This document shows, piece after piece, positions 2,100 to 56,177 of a stretch of 56,486 bases of DNA. The notes below the pieces were generated by a model, which did no database searches, had not been told where the DNA came from, and worked only from the letters and a program-made list of their open reading frames with translations. Position numbers and translations under genes: made by a program. Positions within the stretch are counted from its first letter, which is position 1. The number at the start of each line of letters is the position of its first letter. This DNA is from Candidatus Microgenomates bacterium (GTDB lineage Bacteria > Patescibacteriota > Microgenomatia > Daviesbacterales > UBA10151), in NCBI GenBank assembly GCA_016182045.1, contig JACOYE010000012.1, positions 1 to 56,486 on the forward strand, given 5' to 3'.

Positions 2100-3026
2100 T
2101 CAGATTAATTCCAGGAGTCTGTCCAAACCAAAGGAAAAACCAACAGCAGGGATGTCTTTCTTGGCCCTTCGACTTCGCTCAGGGTAAATAAACATGCCTA
2201 TTAAGTTATCATATCTGCCACCGGCACCAACAGATAAGGAGGTTGGATTTTGATCTAGTTTGAGCTCAAAAATAGCGCCGGTGTAATAATCCAAACCGCG
2301 AGCTAGTGTTGGGTCGAATTTGAAATCAATACCCATCTCTAAAGAATATTTTTCTTTTAAGATATTAAATAATTGCTCAAGATTTTCAGTGGGTTTTTGG
2401 GATCTGATTTCATTAACTGTCTCCTTAGCCTTATCCGGTGATAGTCCACCACTAACTAACTCACTTATCACATCTTCCTCGCCGATTTTATTGATTTTAT
2501 CTATAGCTCTGACTGCTTCAGAAGGAAGTGAGGCAAAATTGGCTCTGTCATTAATGAGCATAACTGCATCTTCAAAGCCTAAATCTTTCATGCATTTAAT
2601 GGTTACTGCCACAATCAAGGCATCTTCTTTGGGATCAGATGAACCCACGCTATCAAAATCAAATTGGGTGAATTCACGCCACCTGCCTTTTTGGGGATTT
2701 TCACCGCGGAAGACCTGGCCAATTTGGTATCTTCTGAATGGTAGGGGAGGGTTGTAGGCTGCCACATACCGTGCAAGCGGAACAGTTAAGTCATAGCGTA
2801 ATGCCAGTTTTCTGCCGCCTCTATCTGTGAACTCATAAATTAACCTTTCTTCCTCCCCGTATTTACCCTTTAGCGTATCTGCAAACTCTATGGTAGGGGT
2901 TTCAATGGGGACAAAGCCATAGCCTTCCAGGACGCTGACAATAATATTTATTGCCTCACGTCTTTTCTTGGCCATATCGGGTTTTATATCCCTAAACCCC
3001 TTTGGTGTTGGCGGTGCTTTAAGCAT
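2100..3026 (-). CDS. hisS: histidine--tRNA ligase, catalytic domain only
   Basis: PKGFRD, LRYDLTVP, FRGENPQKGRWREFTQ, LARGLDYYTG, GGRYDNL, GFSFGLDRL; ends without the anticodon-binding domain. Confidence 0.9.
   Translation of the reverse strand: MLKAPPTPKGFRDIKPDMAKKRREAINIIVSVLEGYGFVPIETPTIEFADTLKGKYGEEERLIYEFTDRGGRKLALRYDLTVPLARYVAAYNPPLPFRRYQIGQVFRGENPQKGRWREFTQFDFDSVGSSDPKEDALIVAVTIKCMKDLGFEDAVMLINDRANFASLPSEAVRAIDKINKIGEEDVISELVSGGLSPDKAKETVNEIRSQKPTENLEQLFNILKEKYSLEMGIDFKFDPTLARGLDYYTGAIFELKLDQNPTSLSVGAGGRYDNLIGMFIYPERSRRAKKDIPAVGFSFGLDRLLELI
2165..2188 (-). repeat. 24-nt micro-insertion TTTA-CCC-TGAGCGAAGTCGAA-GGG in hisS
   Basis: Encodes the YPERSRR segment; removal gives GMFTKKDIPAVG. 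Confidence 0.9.
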
Positions 3027-3084
3027 ACTGTTTAATAATATCATAGCAGTGTACAGACTGCATTTTCCTATGGGTTACCGCAGG

Positions 3085-3132
3085 CCTGCCCTGAGCGAAC
3101 CTGTGGTGATCGTAGCCGAACCAGTCGAAGGG
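3085..3132 (+). repeat. two nested 24-nt micro-insertions (outer 3085-3099 plus 3124-3132; inner 3100-3123)
   Basis: CCTG-CCC-TGAGCGAA[CCTG-TGG-TGATCGTAGCCGAA-CCA]GTCGAA-GGG. Confidence 0.9.
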
Positions 3133-3145
3133 TGTGGTTAGAGGA

Positions 3146-3730
3146 TTAGCTTATTATCCAGTCTAACCCACGGTCCACCCAGGTTCTTTTCTCCTCACCA
3201 GTTGTTGTCAAATTATACAGACGCATTAATACTCTATGTATATAAACCGGGGTGATAAGCTTTTGTGGGGGAGTTAGTCTTTTAATCCAAGACCTGCGAC
3301 GTTCAAGTCTGAGTTCTACTTGACTGGGAGTAATCTCGTCTCTGATTAATGAACCTTGGTTTTTTCTGATTGCTTTCTCATAAGCTAAAGCACGCAAAAA
3401 ATCGTAAAAATTCCATTTGCTATCTGGACTGTCCGAAATAATATAATCATGAGCCAATTCTTTAAAAAAAGTAGTGTCCCCATTAAAAGCATGTTGTAAT
3501 GACTCAAAATCTTTTGTGCCAGTTATACTATGCCAAATCTCAGCTATAGGATTCATATCTTCCTCCGATTGCCCAGTTAAGGTTATATTTGTACCTATTA
3601 GAACCTGTCCAATGTGTTGGATATTTTGTCGAATGGTTCCAGGGAACTTTCTTTCAAAAATTCTACCCAAAATACTGAGAGGATCTTCGGGATCAATATT
3701 GAACATTGTTCCAAGCAATATTTCTGGCAT
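3146..3730 (-). CDS. hypothetical protein
   Basis: 194-aa ORF filling the gap; no motif recognised. Confidence 0.65.
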   Translation of the reverse strand: MPEILLGTMFNIDPEDPLSILGRIFERKFPGTIRQNIQHIGQVLIGTNITLTGQSEEDMNPIAEIWHSITGTKDFESLQHAFNGDTTFFKELAHDYIISDSPDSKWNFYDFLRALAYEKAIRKNQGSLIRDEITPSQVELRLERRRSWIKRLTPPQKLITPVYIHRVLMRLYNLTTTGEEKRTWVDRGLDWIIS

Positions 3731-24535: not shown

Positions 24536-24642
24536 CTAAATAAAAAAGTATAGAGATAACTCAAATGCTTGTCAACGTTTCGTATTTGCTTTGGTGTATT
24601 ACTTTTTAGCAACCATCTAAAAGTTATGTTAGAATGTTGTTC

Positions 24643-25425
24643 ATGTCAGGGCATTCTAAATGGTCAACTATTAAAAGACAAAAAGGGGCGGCGGATATAA
24701 GACGCGGCCAGACTTTTACTAAGGTAGCCAATGCCATAACTATAGCTGTAAAACAGGGGGGTTCTGGGGATGCTGACTCTAACCCCAGGCTTAGAGCTGC
24801 CTTAGAGGATGCAAAAGCTGTTAATATGCCTAAAGACAATATCCAAAGAGCTATTAACCGTGGTTTGGGTAAAGTGGCTGGACAAGCCTTGGAGGAGGTA
24901 GTTTTTGAGGGGTTTGGGCCCGCTAAAGTGGCCTTTTTAGCAGAGGGTGTGACTGACAATAGATTAAGAACGCTTCAGGAAGTGAAGAATTTGTTTGAAA
25001 GATCGGGTGGATCTTTGGCCGGATCGGGGAGTGTGGTATATATGTTTGATAGAAAAGGGGAAATAAGAATTAGGGGACAGGGTACAGGTAACAGTGAGCA
25101 GGAGATGTTAGAGCTAATAGATCTTGGTGCTGAGGATGTGGAGGATTATATGGAAGAACCCTTCGACTTCGCTCAGGGTAAAAATATACAAAAGTATTTG
25201 GTATCTGTAGAGAGCTCAGAGTTAAATACTATGAGTAATAAAATTACTCAAGCAGGATACGAGGTAGAGCAGGCTGAAATAGTCTTTAAACCAAACACTT
25301 TAGTGGAAATAAAGGATCCTGAAGTAGCCAAAAAAGTGTTAGAATTTGCAGAGAAATTAGAGGACTTAGATGACATCCAAAAAGTATATGCCAATTTTGA
25401 CATTCCCGACAATTTATTGGGATGA
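24643..25425 (+). CDS. yebC: YebC/PmpR family protein
   Basis: MSGHSKWSTIKRQKG, NPRLR, NMPKDNI, TDNR.RT, DDIQ.VYAN. Confidence 0.96.
   Translation: MSGHSKWSTIKRQKGAADIRRGQTFTKVANAITIAVKQGGSGDADSNPRLRAALEDAKAVNMPKDNIQRAINRGLGKVAGQALEEVVFEGFGPAKVAFLAEGVTDNRLRTLQEVKNLFERSGGSLAGSGSVVYMFDRKGEIRIRGQGTGNSEQEMLELIDLGAEDVEDYMEEPFDFAQGKNIQKYLVSVESSELNTMSNKITQAGYEVEQAEIVFKPNTLVEIKDPEVAKKVLEFAEKLEDLDDIQKVYANFDIPDNLLG
25159..25182 (-). repeat. 24-nt micro-insertion TTTA-CCC-TGAGCGAAGTCGAA-GGG in yebC
   Basis: Identical to the hisS copy; read antisense as PFDFAQGK; removal gives EDYMEENIQKY. Confidence 0.9.
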
Positions 25426-26839: not shown

Positions 26840-26863
26840 CCTGCGGTGAGCGAAGTCGAACCG
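26840..26863 (+). repeat. 24-nt micro-insertion CCTG-CGG-TGAGCGAAGTCGAA-CCG (intergenic)
   Basis: Same 14-nt core with a compensatory CGG/CCG stem. Confidence 0.9.
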
Positions 26864-47899: not shown

Positions 47900-49852
<1,953 letters not shown>

Positions 49853-55262: not shown

Positions 55263-56177
55263 ATGGTCATTACGGGATTTATATTGGGAACTATCTTAGG
55301 TAGTTTTGTCAAGGCCCTGGCCGATCGGAGTTTAAGAAACGGCACATTTTGGGGAAGGTCGTATTGCCCACACTGTAAAAAGATTTTGCAGTGGTACGAC
55401 CTTCTTCCTATTCTGTCTTATATTTTCCTCAAAGGTAGGTGTAGATATTGTGGAGATAAAATTGGCATGGAGTATTTGGTGGTGGAAGTGGGGATGGGAG
55501 TTTTGATAGGATTTCTATTTTGGCAACAGTTTAATAATTTTCAATCCTTCGACTTCGCTCAGGACAAGTTTTCAATTTTTAATTTTCAATCTTCAATTTT
55601 TATTTTAGATTTACTGTACAAGATCTTCTTTATTAGTACTCTGGCTGTTTTATTTTTAACTGATCTGAAAAAGATGTTTATTCCGGACAGAATTACTCTG
55701 CCGGCAATTGGGATTAGTATAACTTTTATAATCGTTATAACAGTTATAAAAATTATCTATCTTTATAACTACCTTTCCCAAACTGTTTTGGGTCGCTTGC
55801 TTCTTCCTCCACACAGTGATTATTTCTTAAGGCATGCCTATTACGCTGCACAGCCTTTTTTAGGATCTTTGCTGATGGGTCTTTTAATAGGAGGATTTTT
55901 TATGACCCTTATTATCATTACTAAAGGTAAAGGCATGGGAGGGGGGGATGTTAAGCTGGGAGCCTTAATGGGTTTGGGTTTGGGTTTCCCCAATGCATTA
56001 GTTGCCACCATGCTGGCATTTTTATTGGGAGCAGGAGTGGCAATAGTCCTAATGGTGGCGGGTAAAAAAAGATTTGGTCAGTCCATTCCCTTTGGACCGT
56101 TTTTGGTTTTGGGAAGCTTAATTGCCCTATTTTGGGGAGAAAGGATAATTAATTGGTATCTTTATTTATCAATGTAG
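55263..56177 (+). CDS. pilD: prepilin peptidase
   Basis: GSF, RSYCPHC, P..SY..L.GRCRYC, TDL, GMGGGDVKL, IPFGPFL. Confidence 0.95.
   Translation: MVITGFILGTILGSFVKALADRSLRNGTFWGRSYCPHCKKILQWYDLLPILSYIFLKGRCRYCGDKIGMEYLVVEVGMGVLIGFLFWQQFNNFQSFDFAQDKFSIFNFQSSIFILDLLYKIFFISTLAVLFLTDLKKMFIPDRITLPAIGISITFIIVITVIKIIYLYNYLSQTVLGRLLLPPHSDYFLRHAYYAAQPFLGSLLMGLLIGGFFMTLIIITKGKGMGGGDVKLGALMGLGLGFPNALVATMLAFLLGAGVAIVLMVAGKKRFGQSIPFGPFLVLGSLIALFWGERIINWYLYLSM
55545..55568 (-). repeat. 24-nt micro-insertion CTTG-TCC-TGAGCGAAGTCGAA-GGA within a TTTTCAA 7-mer array in pilD
   Basis: Encodes SFDFAQDK; removal restores TTTTCAA-TTTTCAA-TTTTTAA-TTTTCAA-TCTTCAA. Confidence 0.9.

What the first reader, a model, noticed from the sequence alone, without database searches (positions are those of the whole stretch)
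3085..3132. One 24-nt element inserted precisely into the loop of another
Seen: CCTG-CCC-TGAGCGAA [CCTG-TGG-TGATCGTAGCCGAA-CCA] GTCGAA-GGG. Removing 3100-3123 leaves a perfect 24-mer. This defines the unit as 4-nt foot + 3-bp stem + 14-nt core + 3-bp stem, with no duplication or loss of target bases. Inference: a discrete insertion reaction rather than slippage, because the inner stem (TGG/CCA) differs from the outer (CCC/GGG) and so is unlikely to be a local copy.
Basis: seen in the sequence. Interest (0 to 1): 0.8.

Follow-up and report, generated by a model that had tools for sequence, protein, structure and literature searches.

The report
Tiny hairpin element nested in itself
A 24-base hairpin-forming repeat sits exactly inside the loop of another copy of itself; it belongs to a family of very small, apparently mobile DNA elements that also sit in frame inside essential genes of this tiny-genome bacterium and occur in many other bacterial groups.

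Summary
Window 3085-3132 reads CCTG-CCC-TGAGCGAA[CCTG-TGG-TGATCGTAGCCGAA-CCA]GTCGAA-GGG, and removing 3100-3123 restores a perfect 24-mer. Contigs assembled separately from four sequencing runs span it unchanged.

It is not a one-off. This 905-kb candidate-phyla-radiation (CPR, Microgenomates-type) genome holds about 30-36 copies. Six loci carry nests, two of them three levels deep.

The same nested form occurs in 21 of 401 genomes of the class, with zero control hits. Clean 24-nt (8-codon) presence/absence differences in HisRS-like and YebC genes show that the unit is inserted whole.

The stems co-vary. G·T wobbles outnumber A·C mismatches 41 to 5, so one strand folds.

The same core, nested and lying among heptamer repeats, occurs in Nostoc. 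It therefore matches the "small dispersed repeats" of Elhai et al. 2008 in kind. That paper could not be read here.

What appears new is the range: CPR, at least ten other phyla and viral contigs, plus in-frame colonisation of housekeeping genes.

The mobilising enzyme is unknown. No reverse transcriptase was found. RAYT-like and GIY-YIG genes are present but could not be linked to the element.

Verdict: a real feature and a new member of a known kind.

The parts
3085..3099 (+). Outer element, 5' part: foot CCTG (3085-3088), stem arm CCC (3089-3091), core positions 1-8 TGAGCGAA (3092-3099)
   Evidence: sequence. rejoins it with 3124-3132 into a consensus core with a complementary stem.
3100..3123 (+). 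Inner 24-nt element CCTG TGG TGATCGTAGCCGAA CCA, inserted between core positions 8 and 9 of the outer copy (position ambiguous by 1 nt)
   Evidence: It is 2 substitutions from the 24-mer found at C2:6679-6702 and C3:7988-8011.
3124..3132 (+). Outer element, 3' part: core positions 9-14 GTCGAA (3124-3129), stem arm GGG (3130-3132)
2165..2188 (-). Family copy TTTA CCC TGAGCGAAGTCGAA GGG, in frame (IYPERSRR) inside the HisRS-like ORF 2100-3044(-)
   Evidence: 65 of 80 orthologous loci have exactly an 8-residue gap at this point.
25159..25182 (-). Identical 24-mer, antisense and in frame (PFDFAQGK) inside the YebC/TACO1 gene 24634-25425(+)
   Evidence: 14 of 29 orthologous loci have exactly an 8-residue gap. 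G015 carries the same unit at the same site.
26840..26863 (+). Stand-alone copy CCTG CGG TGAGCGAAGTCGAA CCG, not inside a long ORF
55545..55568 (-). Copy CTTG TCC TGAGCGAAGTCGAA GGA, antisense and in frame inside the prepilin peptidase (A24) gene 55263-56177(+), abutting a heptamer array
55569..55600 (.). Tandem heptamer array (TTTTCAA x4.6) directly flanking the copy at 55545-55568; a further TTGAAAA unit lies on its other side

Best explanation
Window 3085-3132 is a two-level nest of a very small non-autonomous repeat.

Anatomy. The unit is normally 24 nt: a 4-nt 5' tag (CCTG or CTTG, or TTTA in a second class), usually preceded by a purine, followed by a 20-nt hairpin. The hairpin has three freely co-varying base pairs closing a 14-nt core, TGAGCGNAGYCGAA. 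I infer that the core itself folds as T1:A14, tandem G2·A13 and A3·G12, G4:C11, C5:G9, a bulged Y10, and a G6-N7-A8 triloop.

Shown:
- The unit is added to DNA as one discrete piece, without duplication or loss of target bases.
- It goes into permissive sites of housekeeping genes (in frame, because 24 = 8 codons) and into intergenic DNA.
- It goes, far above chance, into the apical part of the loop of resident copies, giving nests up to three deep.
- Only one strand is under selection to fold.

Inferred: the active form is single-stranded nucleic acid of the element's own polarity. It is cut out or copied, then joined into a single-stranded target loop by an enzyme acting in trans. Within this single-stranded route, my preferred reading is a DNA-level strand-transfer reaction of the HUH / Y1-transposase (RAYT / IS200-IS605-like) type, which needs a hairpin with a 4-nt tag at its 5' foot and leaves no target duplication. 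That enzyme assignment is not demonstrated.

The element is of the same kind as the small dispersed repeats (SDRs) described in Nostocaceae.
For: Anatomy and non-randomness.

Family size: 36 copies in G000 with a core of up to 3 mismatches plus a paired stem. There are 24 core matches with up to 1 mismatch against 0 for the reversed control.

Stem pairing:
- Among 147 exact-core copies, 96 have 3 Watson-Crick pairs and 123 have Watson-Crick or G·T pairs. I calculate chance at about 1.6% and 5%.
- On 127 distinct copies chosen without regard to the stem, 87.9% of cells are paired against 72.0% in shuffles (0 of 500 shuffles as high).
- The covariation score is 0.426 against 0.144 in shuffles and 0.04-0.15 in slid controls. 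The three outer pairs show 41, 59 and 30 double changes.

Inner pairs: 1:14 is TA in 195 copies and CG in 4. 5:9 is CG in 186, TA in 6 and TG in 4. Position 7 is the most variable.

Strand polarity: of 227 distinct copies, 41 have a G·T wobble on the element strand and 5 have A·C.

Discrete insertion: an exact 8-residue gap in 65 of 80 HisRS-like loci and 14 of 29 YebC loci. Tandem arrays with a 24-nt period occur in L119 and L148.

Self-targeting: I count 8 nesting events at 6 loci in G000. About 0.03 would be expected if roughly 42 units landed at random, because the loops make up about 0.06% of the genome (my calculation). The nested pattern is present in 21 of 401 class genomes, with controls at 0. 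One inverted-orientation nest occurs in L297.

Hosts: 13 of 15 element-bearing ORFs tested have Pfam domains. They include Rho, TsaD, ArgRS, PurL, TatD, YebC, HisRS-like and A24 peptidase.

Candidate enzymes: 3 RAYT-like ORFs carrying HUH and Tyr motifs. No reverse transcriptase was found.

Link to the Nostoc SDRs: the same core occurs nested and among CCAAAAT heptamers in Nostoc loci, with 68 and 130 copies in two Nostoc genomes.
Against: - No filled-versus-empty polymorphism or excision junction was seen in the four runs laid. Current mobility is therefore not shown, and the Rho insertion is old, being shared in decayed form by G008 and G001.
- Nearest-neighbour folding gives only a weak 4-bp stem, no better than shuffles (z about 0). 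The tandem G·A pairs and the GNA triloop are my inference from recalled DNA-hairpin chemistry, and the inner pairs show few informative changes.
- The RAYT-like genes score below the NCBIfam cut-off (38-60 bits against 80). They are not flanked by elements.
- Across 40 genomes the RAYT-like genes correlate only weakly with element counts (Spearman 0.38). G014 has 9 elements and no Y1 match, while G025 and G026 have 4-5 Y1 matches and no element.
- GIY-YIG counts correlate better (Spearman 0.55), but related genomes are not independent.
- The ends are not strictly fixed: there are footless junctions in C6 and C11, and insertion positions vary.
- Repeated occupancy of the same protein sites by unrelated palindromes (L292, L002, L026) shows that selection for permissive sites shapes where copies survive.
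- Identity with a named SDR family could not be checked, because the paper is not held.
Confidence: 0.72

Rival explanations
1. RNA-mediated spread. The element is transcribed and its RNA hairpin is inserted, by reverse splicing or target-primed reverse transcription, into single-stranded loops. This is the route suggested for the Nostoc SDRs (recalled from the abstract of Elhai et al. 2008).
For: One-strand polarity with G·U-type wobbles tolerated, 41 against 5. A compact hairpin with a GNA-type loop. Many copies lie inside transcribed genes.
Against: No match to RVT_1 (PF00078) in G000, which is 92.4% complete. Copies inside ORFs are mostly antisense to the gene, 15 against 4. No Rfam family matches. 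The polarity evidence fits single-stranded DNA equally well.
Confidence: 0.12
2. Nuclease-triggered patch insertion. A small GIY-YIG (or other) nuclease nicks hairpin loops or permissive sites, and repair copies a unit from another element into the break.
For: Seven GIY-YIG matches in G000, six of them in small ORFs. Three of the seven loci have an element-like core within 350 nt: C9 and C6, and C14, whose core has 3 mismatches and an unpaired stem. GIY-YIG counts correlate with element counts across 40 genomes (Spearman 0.55).
Against: The other four GIY-YIG loci have no element within 350 nt. The correlation is not corrected for relatedness and may only reflect the overall load of mobile DNA. 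Repair copying would need flanking homology, which stand-alone sites lack.
Confidence: 0.1
3. Not mobile. The motif is a conserved functional site for a protein or RNA, and the nests come from local duplication, slippage or template switching.
For: The core is nearly invariant across phyla, as expected of a recognised site. Some insertions are old. No presence/absence variation was seen in the runs laid.
Against: Inner and outer copies differ in their stems. There are clean 24-nt presence/absence differences inside conserved genes. Copies occur in both orientations and in unrelated genes. An identical inner 24-mer sits at two different nested loci. Simple template switching would need the donor copy to be already followed by GTCGAA (my reasoning).
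Confidence: 0.05
4. Assembly or chimera artefact at 3085-3132.
For: Short repeats can mislead assemblers. The depth summed over all contigs peaks at 3094-3135, because other loci and organisms share the motif.
Against: Four separately assembled contigs span the site with 0 differences. The same architecture is seen in 20 other genomes.
Confidence: 0.01

Closest known systems
Small dispersed repeats (SDR1-SDR8) of Nostoc punctiforme and relatives (Elhai, Kato, Cousins, Lindblad, Costa, Genome Res 2008, 18:1484). The paper is not held; its abstract is recalled. Citing passages were read in PMC4390886, PMC5861425, PMC13756078, PMC2884548 and PMC3116915.
   Same: A unit of 21-27 nt. A hairpin supported by compensatory changes. 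Copies inserted within copies of themselves. Copies embedded in tandem heptamers. No encoded protein. The very core studied here occurs in Nostoc loci, nested and among CCAAAAT heptamers, at 68 and 130 copies per genome.
   Different: SDRs were reported as confined to Nostocaceae (PMC5861425, passage read). Here the family is in a CPR genome of 0.9 Mb, in 32 of 40 related genomes, in at least ten other phyla and in viral contigs, and it sits in frame in housekeeping genes. I could not check which SDR number, if any, has this sequence. By TRF, only 1 of 29 copies in this genome abuts a heptamer array.
REP elements / REPINs and their RAYT transposases (Bertels and Rainey 2011, PMC3116915; Di Nocera et al. 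2013, PMC3733652; passages read)
   Same: A short palindrome with a conserved tetranucleotide tag at one end. Occasional intragenic copies. RAYT-like Y1/HUH genes in the same genome.
   Different: The tag is CCTG, CTTG or TTTA, not GTAG or CGTC. The stem is only 3-4 bp with a large conserved loop. Units are single rather than inverted doublets. No copy flanks a RAYT-like gene. Self-nesting is not a REP trait. More than half of the copies may lie in ORFs.
Rickettsia palindromic elements (RPE; Ogata et al. 2000, recalled; mentioned in PMC3733652)
   Same: Palindromic repeats inserted in frame in functional protein-coding genes, tolerated at permissive sites.
   Different: RPEs are roughly 100-150 bp (recalled) and confined to Rickettsia. 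This unit is 24 nt and occurs across phyla.
IS200/IS605-family single-strand transposition (IS608, ISDra2; recalled)
   Same: A hairpin with a 4-nt sequence at its 5' foot. Insertion without target duplication. A single-stranded, strand-specific substrate.
   Different: Those elements are at least 0.7 kb, have two different hairpin ends and encode TnpA. A fixed target tetranucleotide and a lagging-strand bias were not demonstrated here.

Membership tests
SDR elements (Elhai 2008) | Dispersed repeat of 21-27 nt with no coding capacity | tested here: met
   A 24-nt unit, 36 copies in G000. The size range is recalled from the abstract.
SDR elements (Elhai 2008) | Predicted hairpin supported by compensatory changes | tested here: met
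   covariation 0.426 against 0.144 in shuffles (0 of 500 as high). At least 13 different complementary stems.
SDR elements (Elhai 2008) | Copies inserted within copies of themselves | tested here: met
SDR elements (Elhai 2008) | Embedded in tandem heptamer repeats | tested here: inconclusive
   One of 29 copies abuts a TRF-detected heptamer array, at window 55545-55600. By eye, 2-3 more lie among short CCCTGTA-like heptamers. The association is clear in the Nostoc loci.
SDR elements (Elhai 2008) | Sequence identity with one of SDR1-SDR8 | not testable with these tools
   The paper is not held. Indirect support only: the same core is nested in Nostoc genomes.
SDR elements (Elhai 2008) | Restricted to Nostocaceae | tested here: not met
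   Found in CPR and many other phyla.
REP / REPIN-RAYT | GTAG or CGTC tag at one end of the palindrome | tested here: not met
   Feet are CCTG, CTTG or TTTA.
REP / REPIN-RAYT | RAYT gene flanked by the repeats (REPtron) | tested here: not met
   Three RAYT-like ORFs with no flanking copies. NCBIfam scores are below the cut-off.
REP / REPIN-RAYT | Mostly extragenic, arranged as inverted doublets | tested here: not met
   Up to 19 of 36 copies lie in long ORFs. Units are single, nested or tandem.
IS200/IS605-like single-strand transposition (mechanism, not membership) | No target-site duplication, and a strand-specific hairpin substrate | tested here: met
   Exact 24-nt insertions. G·T against A·C is 41 to 5.
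IS200/IS605-like single-strand transposition (mechanism, not membership) | Orientation bias towards the lagging-strand template | tested here: inconclusive
   In the closed G005 chromosome, about 12 copies against 5 under one reading of an irregular GC skew.
MITE | Terminal inverted repeats plus a target-site duplication, derived from an insertion sequence | tested here: not met
   No duplication at empty versus filled sites or at nests.

The most novel reading that the evidence does not exclude
The element is not a peculiarity of Nostocaceae. It is one pan-bacterial family of 24-nt self-targeting hairpin elements, the smallest mobile DNA known. It has a near-invariant 14-nt loop in CPR, Acidobacteriota, Planctomycetota, Verrucomicrobiota, Bacteroidota, Chloroflexota, Cyanobacteria and phage contigs. 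It moves as single-stranded DNA through a widely shared trans-acting enzyme. It steadily adds 8-residue loops to essential proteins such as Rho, aminoacyl-tRNA synthetases, TsaD and PurL in reduced genomes.
Probability: 0.4. Interest if true: 0.8.

Novelty: new member of a known kind. Interest (0 to 1): 0.55.

Why it matters
How 21-27-nt repeats move has been open since 2008; a 2026 paper still calls the function of SDR5, one of these repeats, unknown (PMC13756078, passage read). This locus and its relatives offer a compact and well-defined system. It has a fixed 24-nt unit, a defined target (its own apical loop), strand polarity, and natural filled and empty sites in conserved genes. The host genomes are under 1 Mb, so the list of candidate enzymes is short: three RAYT-like genes, six small GIY-YIG genes and no reverse transcriptase.

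The finding also shows that some of the unexplained extra loops in CPR proteins are repeat insertions. It further shows that one micro-element is shared across distant phyla and viral contigs. Both points matter for annotation, because the element generates spurious peptide motifs such as PSTSLRTG, FDFAQDK and YPERSRR. They also matter for ideas on horizontal spread.

Tried and rejected
- Rfam gave nothing for the element at gathering thresholds over the whole window (only a tRNA). At E up to 10 on 3040-3180 there were two chance-level hits.
- Thermodynamic folding of single and nested units, as DNA and as RNA, gave only the 4-bp closing stem and z-scores near 0. Energy models therefore add no support.
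- Reverse transcriptase (PF00078) was not found in G000, which is 92.4% complete.
- Y1 transposase and GIY-YIG genes are present. However, flank inspection and phyletic correlation over 40 related genomes do not single out either one.
- Replichore orientation in the closed relative G005 gave about 12 copies against 5, on an irregular GC skew. This is inconclusive.
- Flank composition shows a purine just 5' of the foot (11 of 12 stand-alone CPR copies, 99 of 108 in other phyla) and otherwise no target consensus.
- The heptamer association is weak in this genome: 1 of 29 copies by TRF.
- Reads showed no empty allele, no joint and no excision product. These were contigs, which drop rare variants.
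- Literature: no paper in the searched library contains the core sequence or its complement. Searches for SDR literature and for CPR plus palindromic elements found no description of this element outside Nostocaceae. The key paper (Elhai 2008) is not in the library, and supplements were closed, so a prior description cannot be excluded.
- Slippage, template switching and assembly artefact were considered and rejected (see the rival explanations).

Full report
**1. The observation**

One search shows window 3085-3132 as CCTG CCC TGAGCGAA | CCTG TGG TGATCGTAGCCGAA CCA | GTCGAA GGG. Removing 3100-3123 leaves CCTGCCCTGAGCGAAGTCGAAGGG. A loose pattern for the unit matches 3 times in the window, against 0.03 expected from 100 shuffles.

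Logan contigs from four runs span the site with no differences, no indels and no joints. The runs come from one study, and that study may include the source sample. The contigs cover 2800-3400 twice, 2833-3251 and 2843-3400. No allele lacking the inner copy was seen. Contigs drop rare variants, so this does not prove that no such allele exists.

**2. A repeat family**

The window is contig C13 of a 905,223-base, 24-contig genome with about 39% G+C. Orthologues of its HisRS-like gene come from Microgenomates-group CPR genomes.

Searching for the core TGAGCGAAGTCGAA with up to 3 mismatches and a paired 3-nt flank gives 34-36 copies. A few of the 3-mismatch copies are probably chance hits. With up to 1 mismatch there are 24 matches, against 0 for the reversed control.

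Stems differ between copies but stay complementary. Examples are CCC/GGG, TCC/GGA, TGG/CCA, TAC/GTA, CAC/GTG, CGG/CCG, GGC/GCC and CAG/CTG. In this genome the 4 nt before the hairpin are CCTG in 8 copies, CTTG in 5, TTTA in 5, and something else in 18 of 36.

**3. Structure**

I pooled G000 with all loci fetched up to that point (2.37 Mb). Retrieval was biased for the core and foot but not for the stems.

- Of 147 exact-core copies, 96 have three Watson-Crick stem pairs and 123 have Watson-Crick or G·T pairs.
- I then took 127 distinct 24-mers chosen only by their core (up to 2 mismatches) and tested the structure ....((((..((...).)..)))).
- That structure has 87.9% of cells paired against 72.0% in shuffles (0 of 500 shuffles as high).
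- Its covariation score is 0.426 against 0.144 in shuffles, and slid controls give 0.04-0.15.
- The three outer pairs carry 41, 59 and 30 double changes.
- Inside the core, T1/A14 changes together to C1/G14 in 4 of the 5 copies that have C1. C5/G9 changes to T5/A9 in 6 copies or T5/G9 in 4.
- Position 7 is the most variable (A 157, T 35, G 10, C 5), followed by position 10.

From this I infer a rod-like hairpin: the stem, then T:A, tandem G·A pairs, G:C and C:G, a bulged pyrimidine, and a G-N-A triloop. The stability of GNA mini-hairpins is recalled chemistry, not something tested here.

Standard energy models do not see this structure. They predict only a weak 4-bp stem, with z-scores about 0 for both DNA and RNA.

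Among 227 distinct copies, 41 have one G·T wobble on the element strand. Only 5 have A·C, which would be a wobble on the opposite strand. So one strand is the folded, selected form. Subfamily propagation inflates these counts.

**4. Nesting recurs**

By reading, G000 has nests at six loci.

- **C13** is this finding.
- **C2** is three levels deep, 72 nt in all, with each insertion after core position 8.
- **C3** is inside the Rho gene, after position 8.
- **C4** is after position 6.
- **C6** has an insert without the foot.
- **C11** is three levels deep, and its outermost stem is imperfect.

An automatic parser confirmed one junction at each of the six loci. That makes about 8 insertion events into roughly 40 resident loops. 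The loops are about 0.06% of the genome, so about 0.03 events would be expected at random. This estimate is my own.

The inner 24-mer CCTG TGG TGAGCGTAGTCGAA CCA is identical at C2 and C3. The window's inner copy differs from it at two positions.

In the class, a pattern requiring an inner unit after position 8 matches in 21 of 401 genomes, counting G000, with zero hits for the reversed control.

Elsewhere the insertion position differs. It is position 7 in three Nostoc loci and one other locus (L226), and position 3 plus position 7 in one Nostoc locus (L154). One nest, in G017's YebC gene, is in inverted orientation after position 4 (L297). Most junctions are ambiguous by 1 nt.

**5. Whole-unit insertion into genes**

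Up to 19 of 36 copies lie within long ORFs. Fifteen are antisense to the ORF and 4 are sense. Two of the 19 sit at or just before the start codon.

Of 15 element-bearing ORFs scanned, 13 have Pfam domains:

- Rho
- a PMT-like glycosyltransferase
- a TPR protein
- TatD
- an ATP-grasp / citrate-binding protein (two copies)
- a nucleotidyltransferase
- TsaD
- prepilin peptidase
- YebC
- a PurQ-like amidotransferase
- PurL (two copies)
- ArgRS
- the HisRS-like protein

Opposite IYPERSRR in the HisRS-like protein, 65 of 80 orthologous loci have exactly an 8-residue gap. Twelve others carry a different 7-residue insert. Opposite PFDFAQGK in YebC, 14 of 29 loci have exactly an 8-residue gap. G015 has the same unit at the same site with a different N7. 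G017 and G008 have complex nests there.

At the DNA level the YebC filled and empty sites differ by exactly the 24 nt TTTACCCTGAGCGAAGTCGAAGGG, with no duplicated target.

The Rho insertion is old. G008 keeps only the outer left half plus the inner foot, and G001 keeps a decayed single copy.

Unrelated palindromes occupy the same HisRS and YebC sites in other genomes (L002, L026, L292). Survival at permissive protein sites therefore also shapes the pattern.

**6. Distribution**

- The core with up to 1 mismatch is present in 32 of 40 related genomes. Reversed controls give 0-2 per genome.
- The 80 loci returned come from Acidobacteriota, Nostoc/Trichormus, Patescibacteria, Planctomycetota, Verrucomicrobiota, Bacteroidota, Chloroflexota, Proteobacteria, Nitrospirales, Omnitrophota and others.
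- Of 83 matches in those loci, 53 have perfect stems.
- Whole-genome counts (with reversed controls in brackets) are 68 and 130 in two Nostoc genomes (2, 7), 70 in an Acidobacteriaceae MAG (2), 80 in a 2.4-Mb Pirellulales MAG (1) and 9 in a flavobacterium (0).
- Viral contigs hold 38 stretches. Thirty have Watson-Crick stems and 34 have Watson-Crick or G·T stems. Several of these contigs are near-duplicates of each other.
- In Nostoc the element is nested and lies among CCAAAAT heptamers.
- In this genome only the copy at 55545-55568 abuts a TRF-detected heptamer array, so 1 of 29. Period 7 is nevertheless the commonest tandem-repeat period in the genome.

**7. Comparison with what is known**

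The closest known kind is the small dispersed repeats of Nostoc punctiforme (Elhai et al. 2008). The paper is not held. From my recollection of its abstract, these are 21-27 nt elements. Three families share a hairpin supported by compensatory changes. Copies are often embedded in heptamer repeats. SDR1 and SDR4 are found within copies of themselves. The families are confined to one cyanobacterial subgroup, and an RNA intermediate is suspected.

Passages read in citing papers confirm several points. PMC13756078 gives the 21-nt size of SDR5 and says its function is unknown. PMC5861425 states the restriction to Nostocaceae. PMC4390886 describes the precise insertion of SDR5 into HIP1.

The present element matches this kind in every structural trait. 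It breaks the reported host restriction. I could not check whether its sequence equals a numbered SDR.

REP/RAYT systems share the idea of a tagged hairpin, but they differ in tag, architecture, location and gene linkage (PMC3733652 and PMC3116915, passages read). Rickettsial RPEs share only the in-frame insertion.

No paper in the searched library contains the core sequence.

**8. Mechanism**

Shown:
- a discrete unit
- no target duplication
- strong preference for the apical loop of resident copies
- single-strand polarity
- tolerance in both orientations and in genes

Inferred: a trans-acting enzyme handles a single-stranded hairpin that carries a 5' tag. I favour a DNA-level HUH/Y1-type strand transfer, for three reasons:

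- The substrate geometry fits.
- Three RAYT-like ORFs with HUH and Tyr motifs are present.
- No reverse transcriptase is found.

The link is weak. The RAYT-like genes have no flanking copies. The correlation across 40 genomes is 0.38, with clear exceptions. GIY-YIG genes correlate better, at 0.55. Replichore bias in the one closed relative is inconclusive.

**9. Verdict**

The phenomenon is known in kind from Nostocaceae. What is new here is the host range (CPR, many phyla, viral contigs), the in-frame colonisation of essential genes with natural empty sites, and the evidence for strand polarity and the finer structure.

Noticed in passing
window 2100-3044 (-), element at 2165-2188: The HisRS-like gene next to the finding carries an in-frame 24-nt copy (IYPERSRR). 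In other genomes the same site holds unrelated inserts of 7 residues (VYPDKGG-like) or LPAGRQ-like palindrome products.
   Followed up: yes
L292 (YebC of G012); L002 and L026 (HisRS-like loci): A second micro-palindrome, CTGCCTACCGGTAGGCAG-like and giving LPTGRQ or LPAGRQ peptides, occupies the same protein hot spots in relatives. It may be another tiny element family.
   Followed up: no
whole genome G000; window arrays such as 49338-49368 and 55569-55600: Period-7 tandem repeats are the commonest tandem-repeat class in this CPR genome (153 TRF rows, 4,270 bases). This recalls the heptamer repeats of heterocystous cyanobacteria. Some lie inside genes.
   Followed up: partly
G000 C18:19431-19664, C2:47984-48214, C2:54506-54736: Three ORFs of about 220 aa are RAYT-like Y1/HUH transposase homologues. 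They score below the NCBIfam cut-off and have no flanking repeats. 33 of 40 related genomes have such genes.
   Followed up: partly
G000 C9:9143-9361, C6:6723-6842, C14:929-1141 and four other sites: Seven GIY-YIG matches, six of them in small ORFs. Three of the seven loci have an element-like core within 350 nt; the one at C14 has 3 mismatches and an unpaired stem. GIY-YIG counts track element counts across 40 genomes (Spearman 0.55, uncorrected for relatedness).
   Followed up: partly
L119 (alphaproteobacterial MAG), L148 (Planctomycetales MAG), G002:C45:3039-3150: Head-to-tail arrays of the element occur, with a 24-nt period (3 and about 5 units) or a 49-nt period. Some appear to lie inside coding sequence.
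   Followed up: no
L313-L350 (viral contigs): The exact element occurs in 38 viral or proviral stretches, 30 of them with perfect stems. These could be vehicles for spread across phyla.
   Followed up: partly
L114, L117, L136 (other phyla): The 24-mer is also found inserted into related hairpins with other loops, such as TGAGCTTGTCGAA and the GTCATCCTGA...GAAGGATCTC type. This suggests a wider superfamily of TGAGC...CGAA-loop elements.
   Followed up: no
G000 C11:85536-85559 and C17:146204-146227: Foot plus 5' stem arm (CCTGTCC, CCTGTAC) resembles a cyclic permutation of the flanking CCCTGTA heptamers. This hints that heptamer arrays and the elements share an origin.
   Followed up: no
window 3089-3133 in runs X1-X4: Other contigs of the same metagenomes match the nested 41-44 nt with 1-4 differences. 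Near-identical nests therefore exist in other loci or organisms of that community.
   Followed up: no
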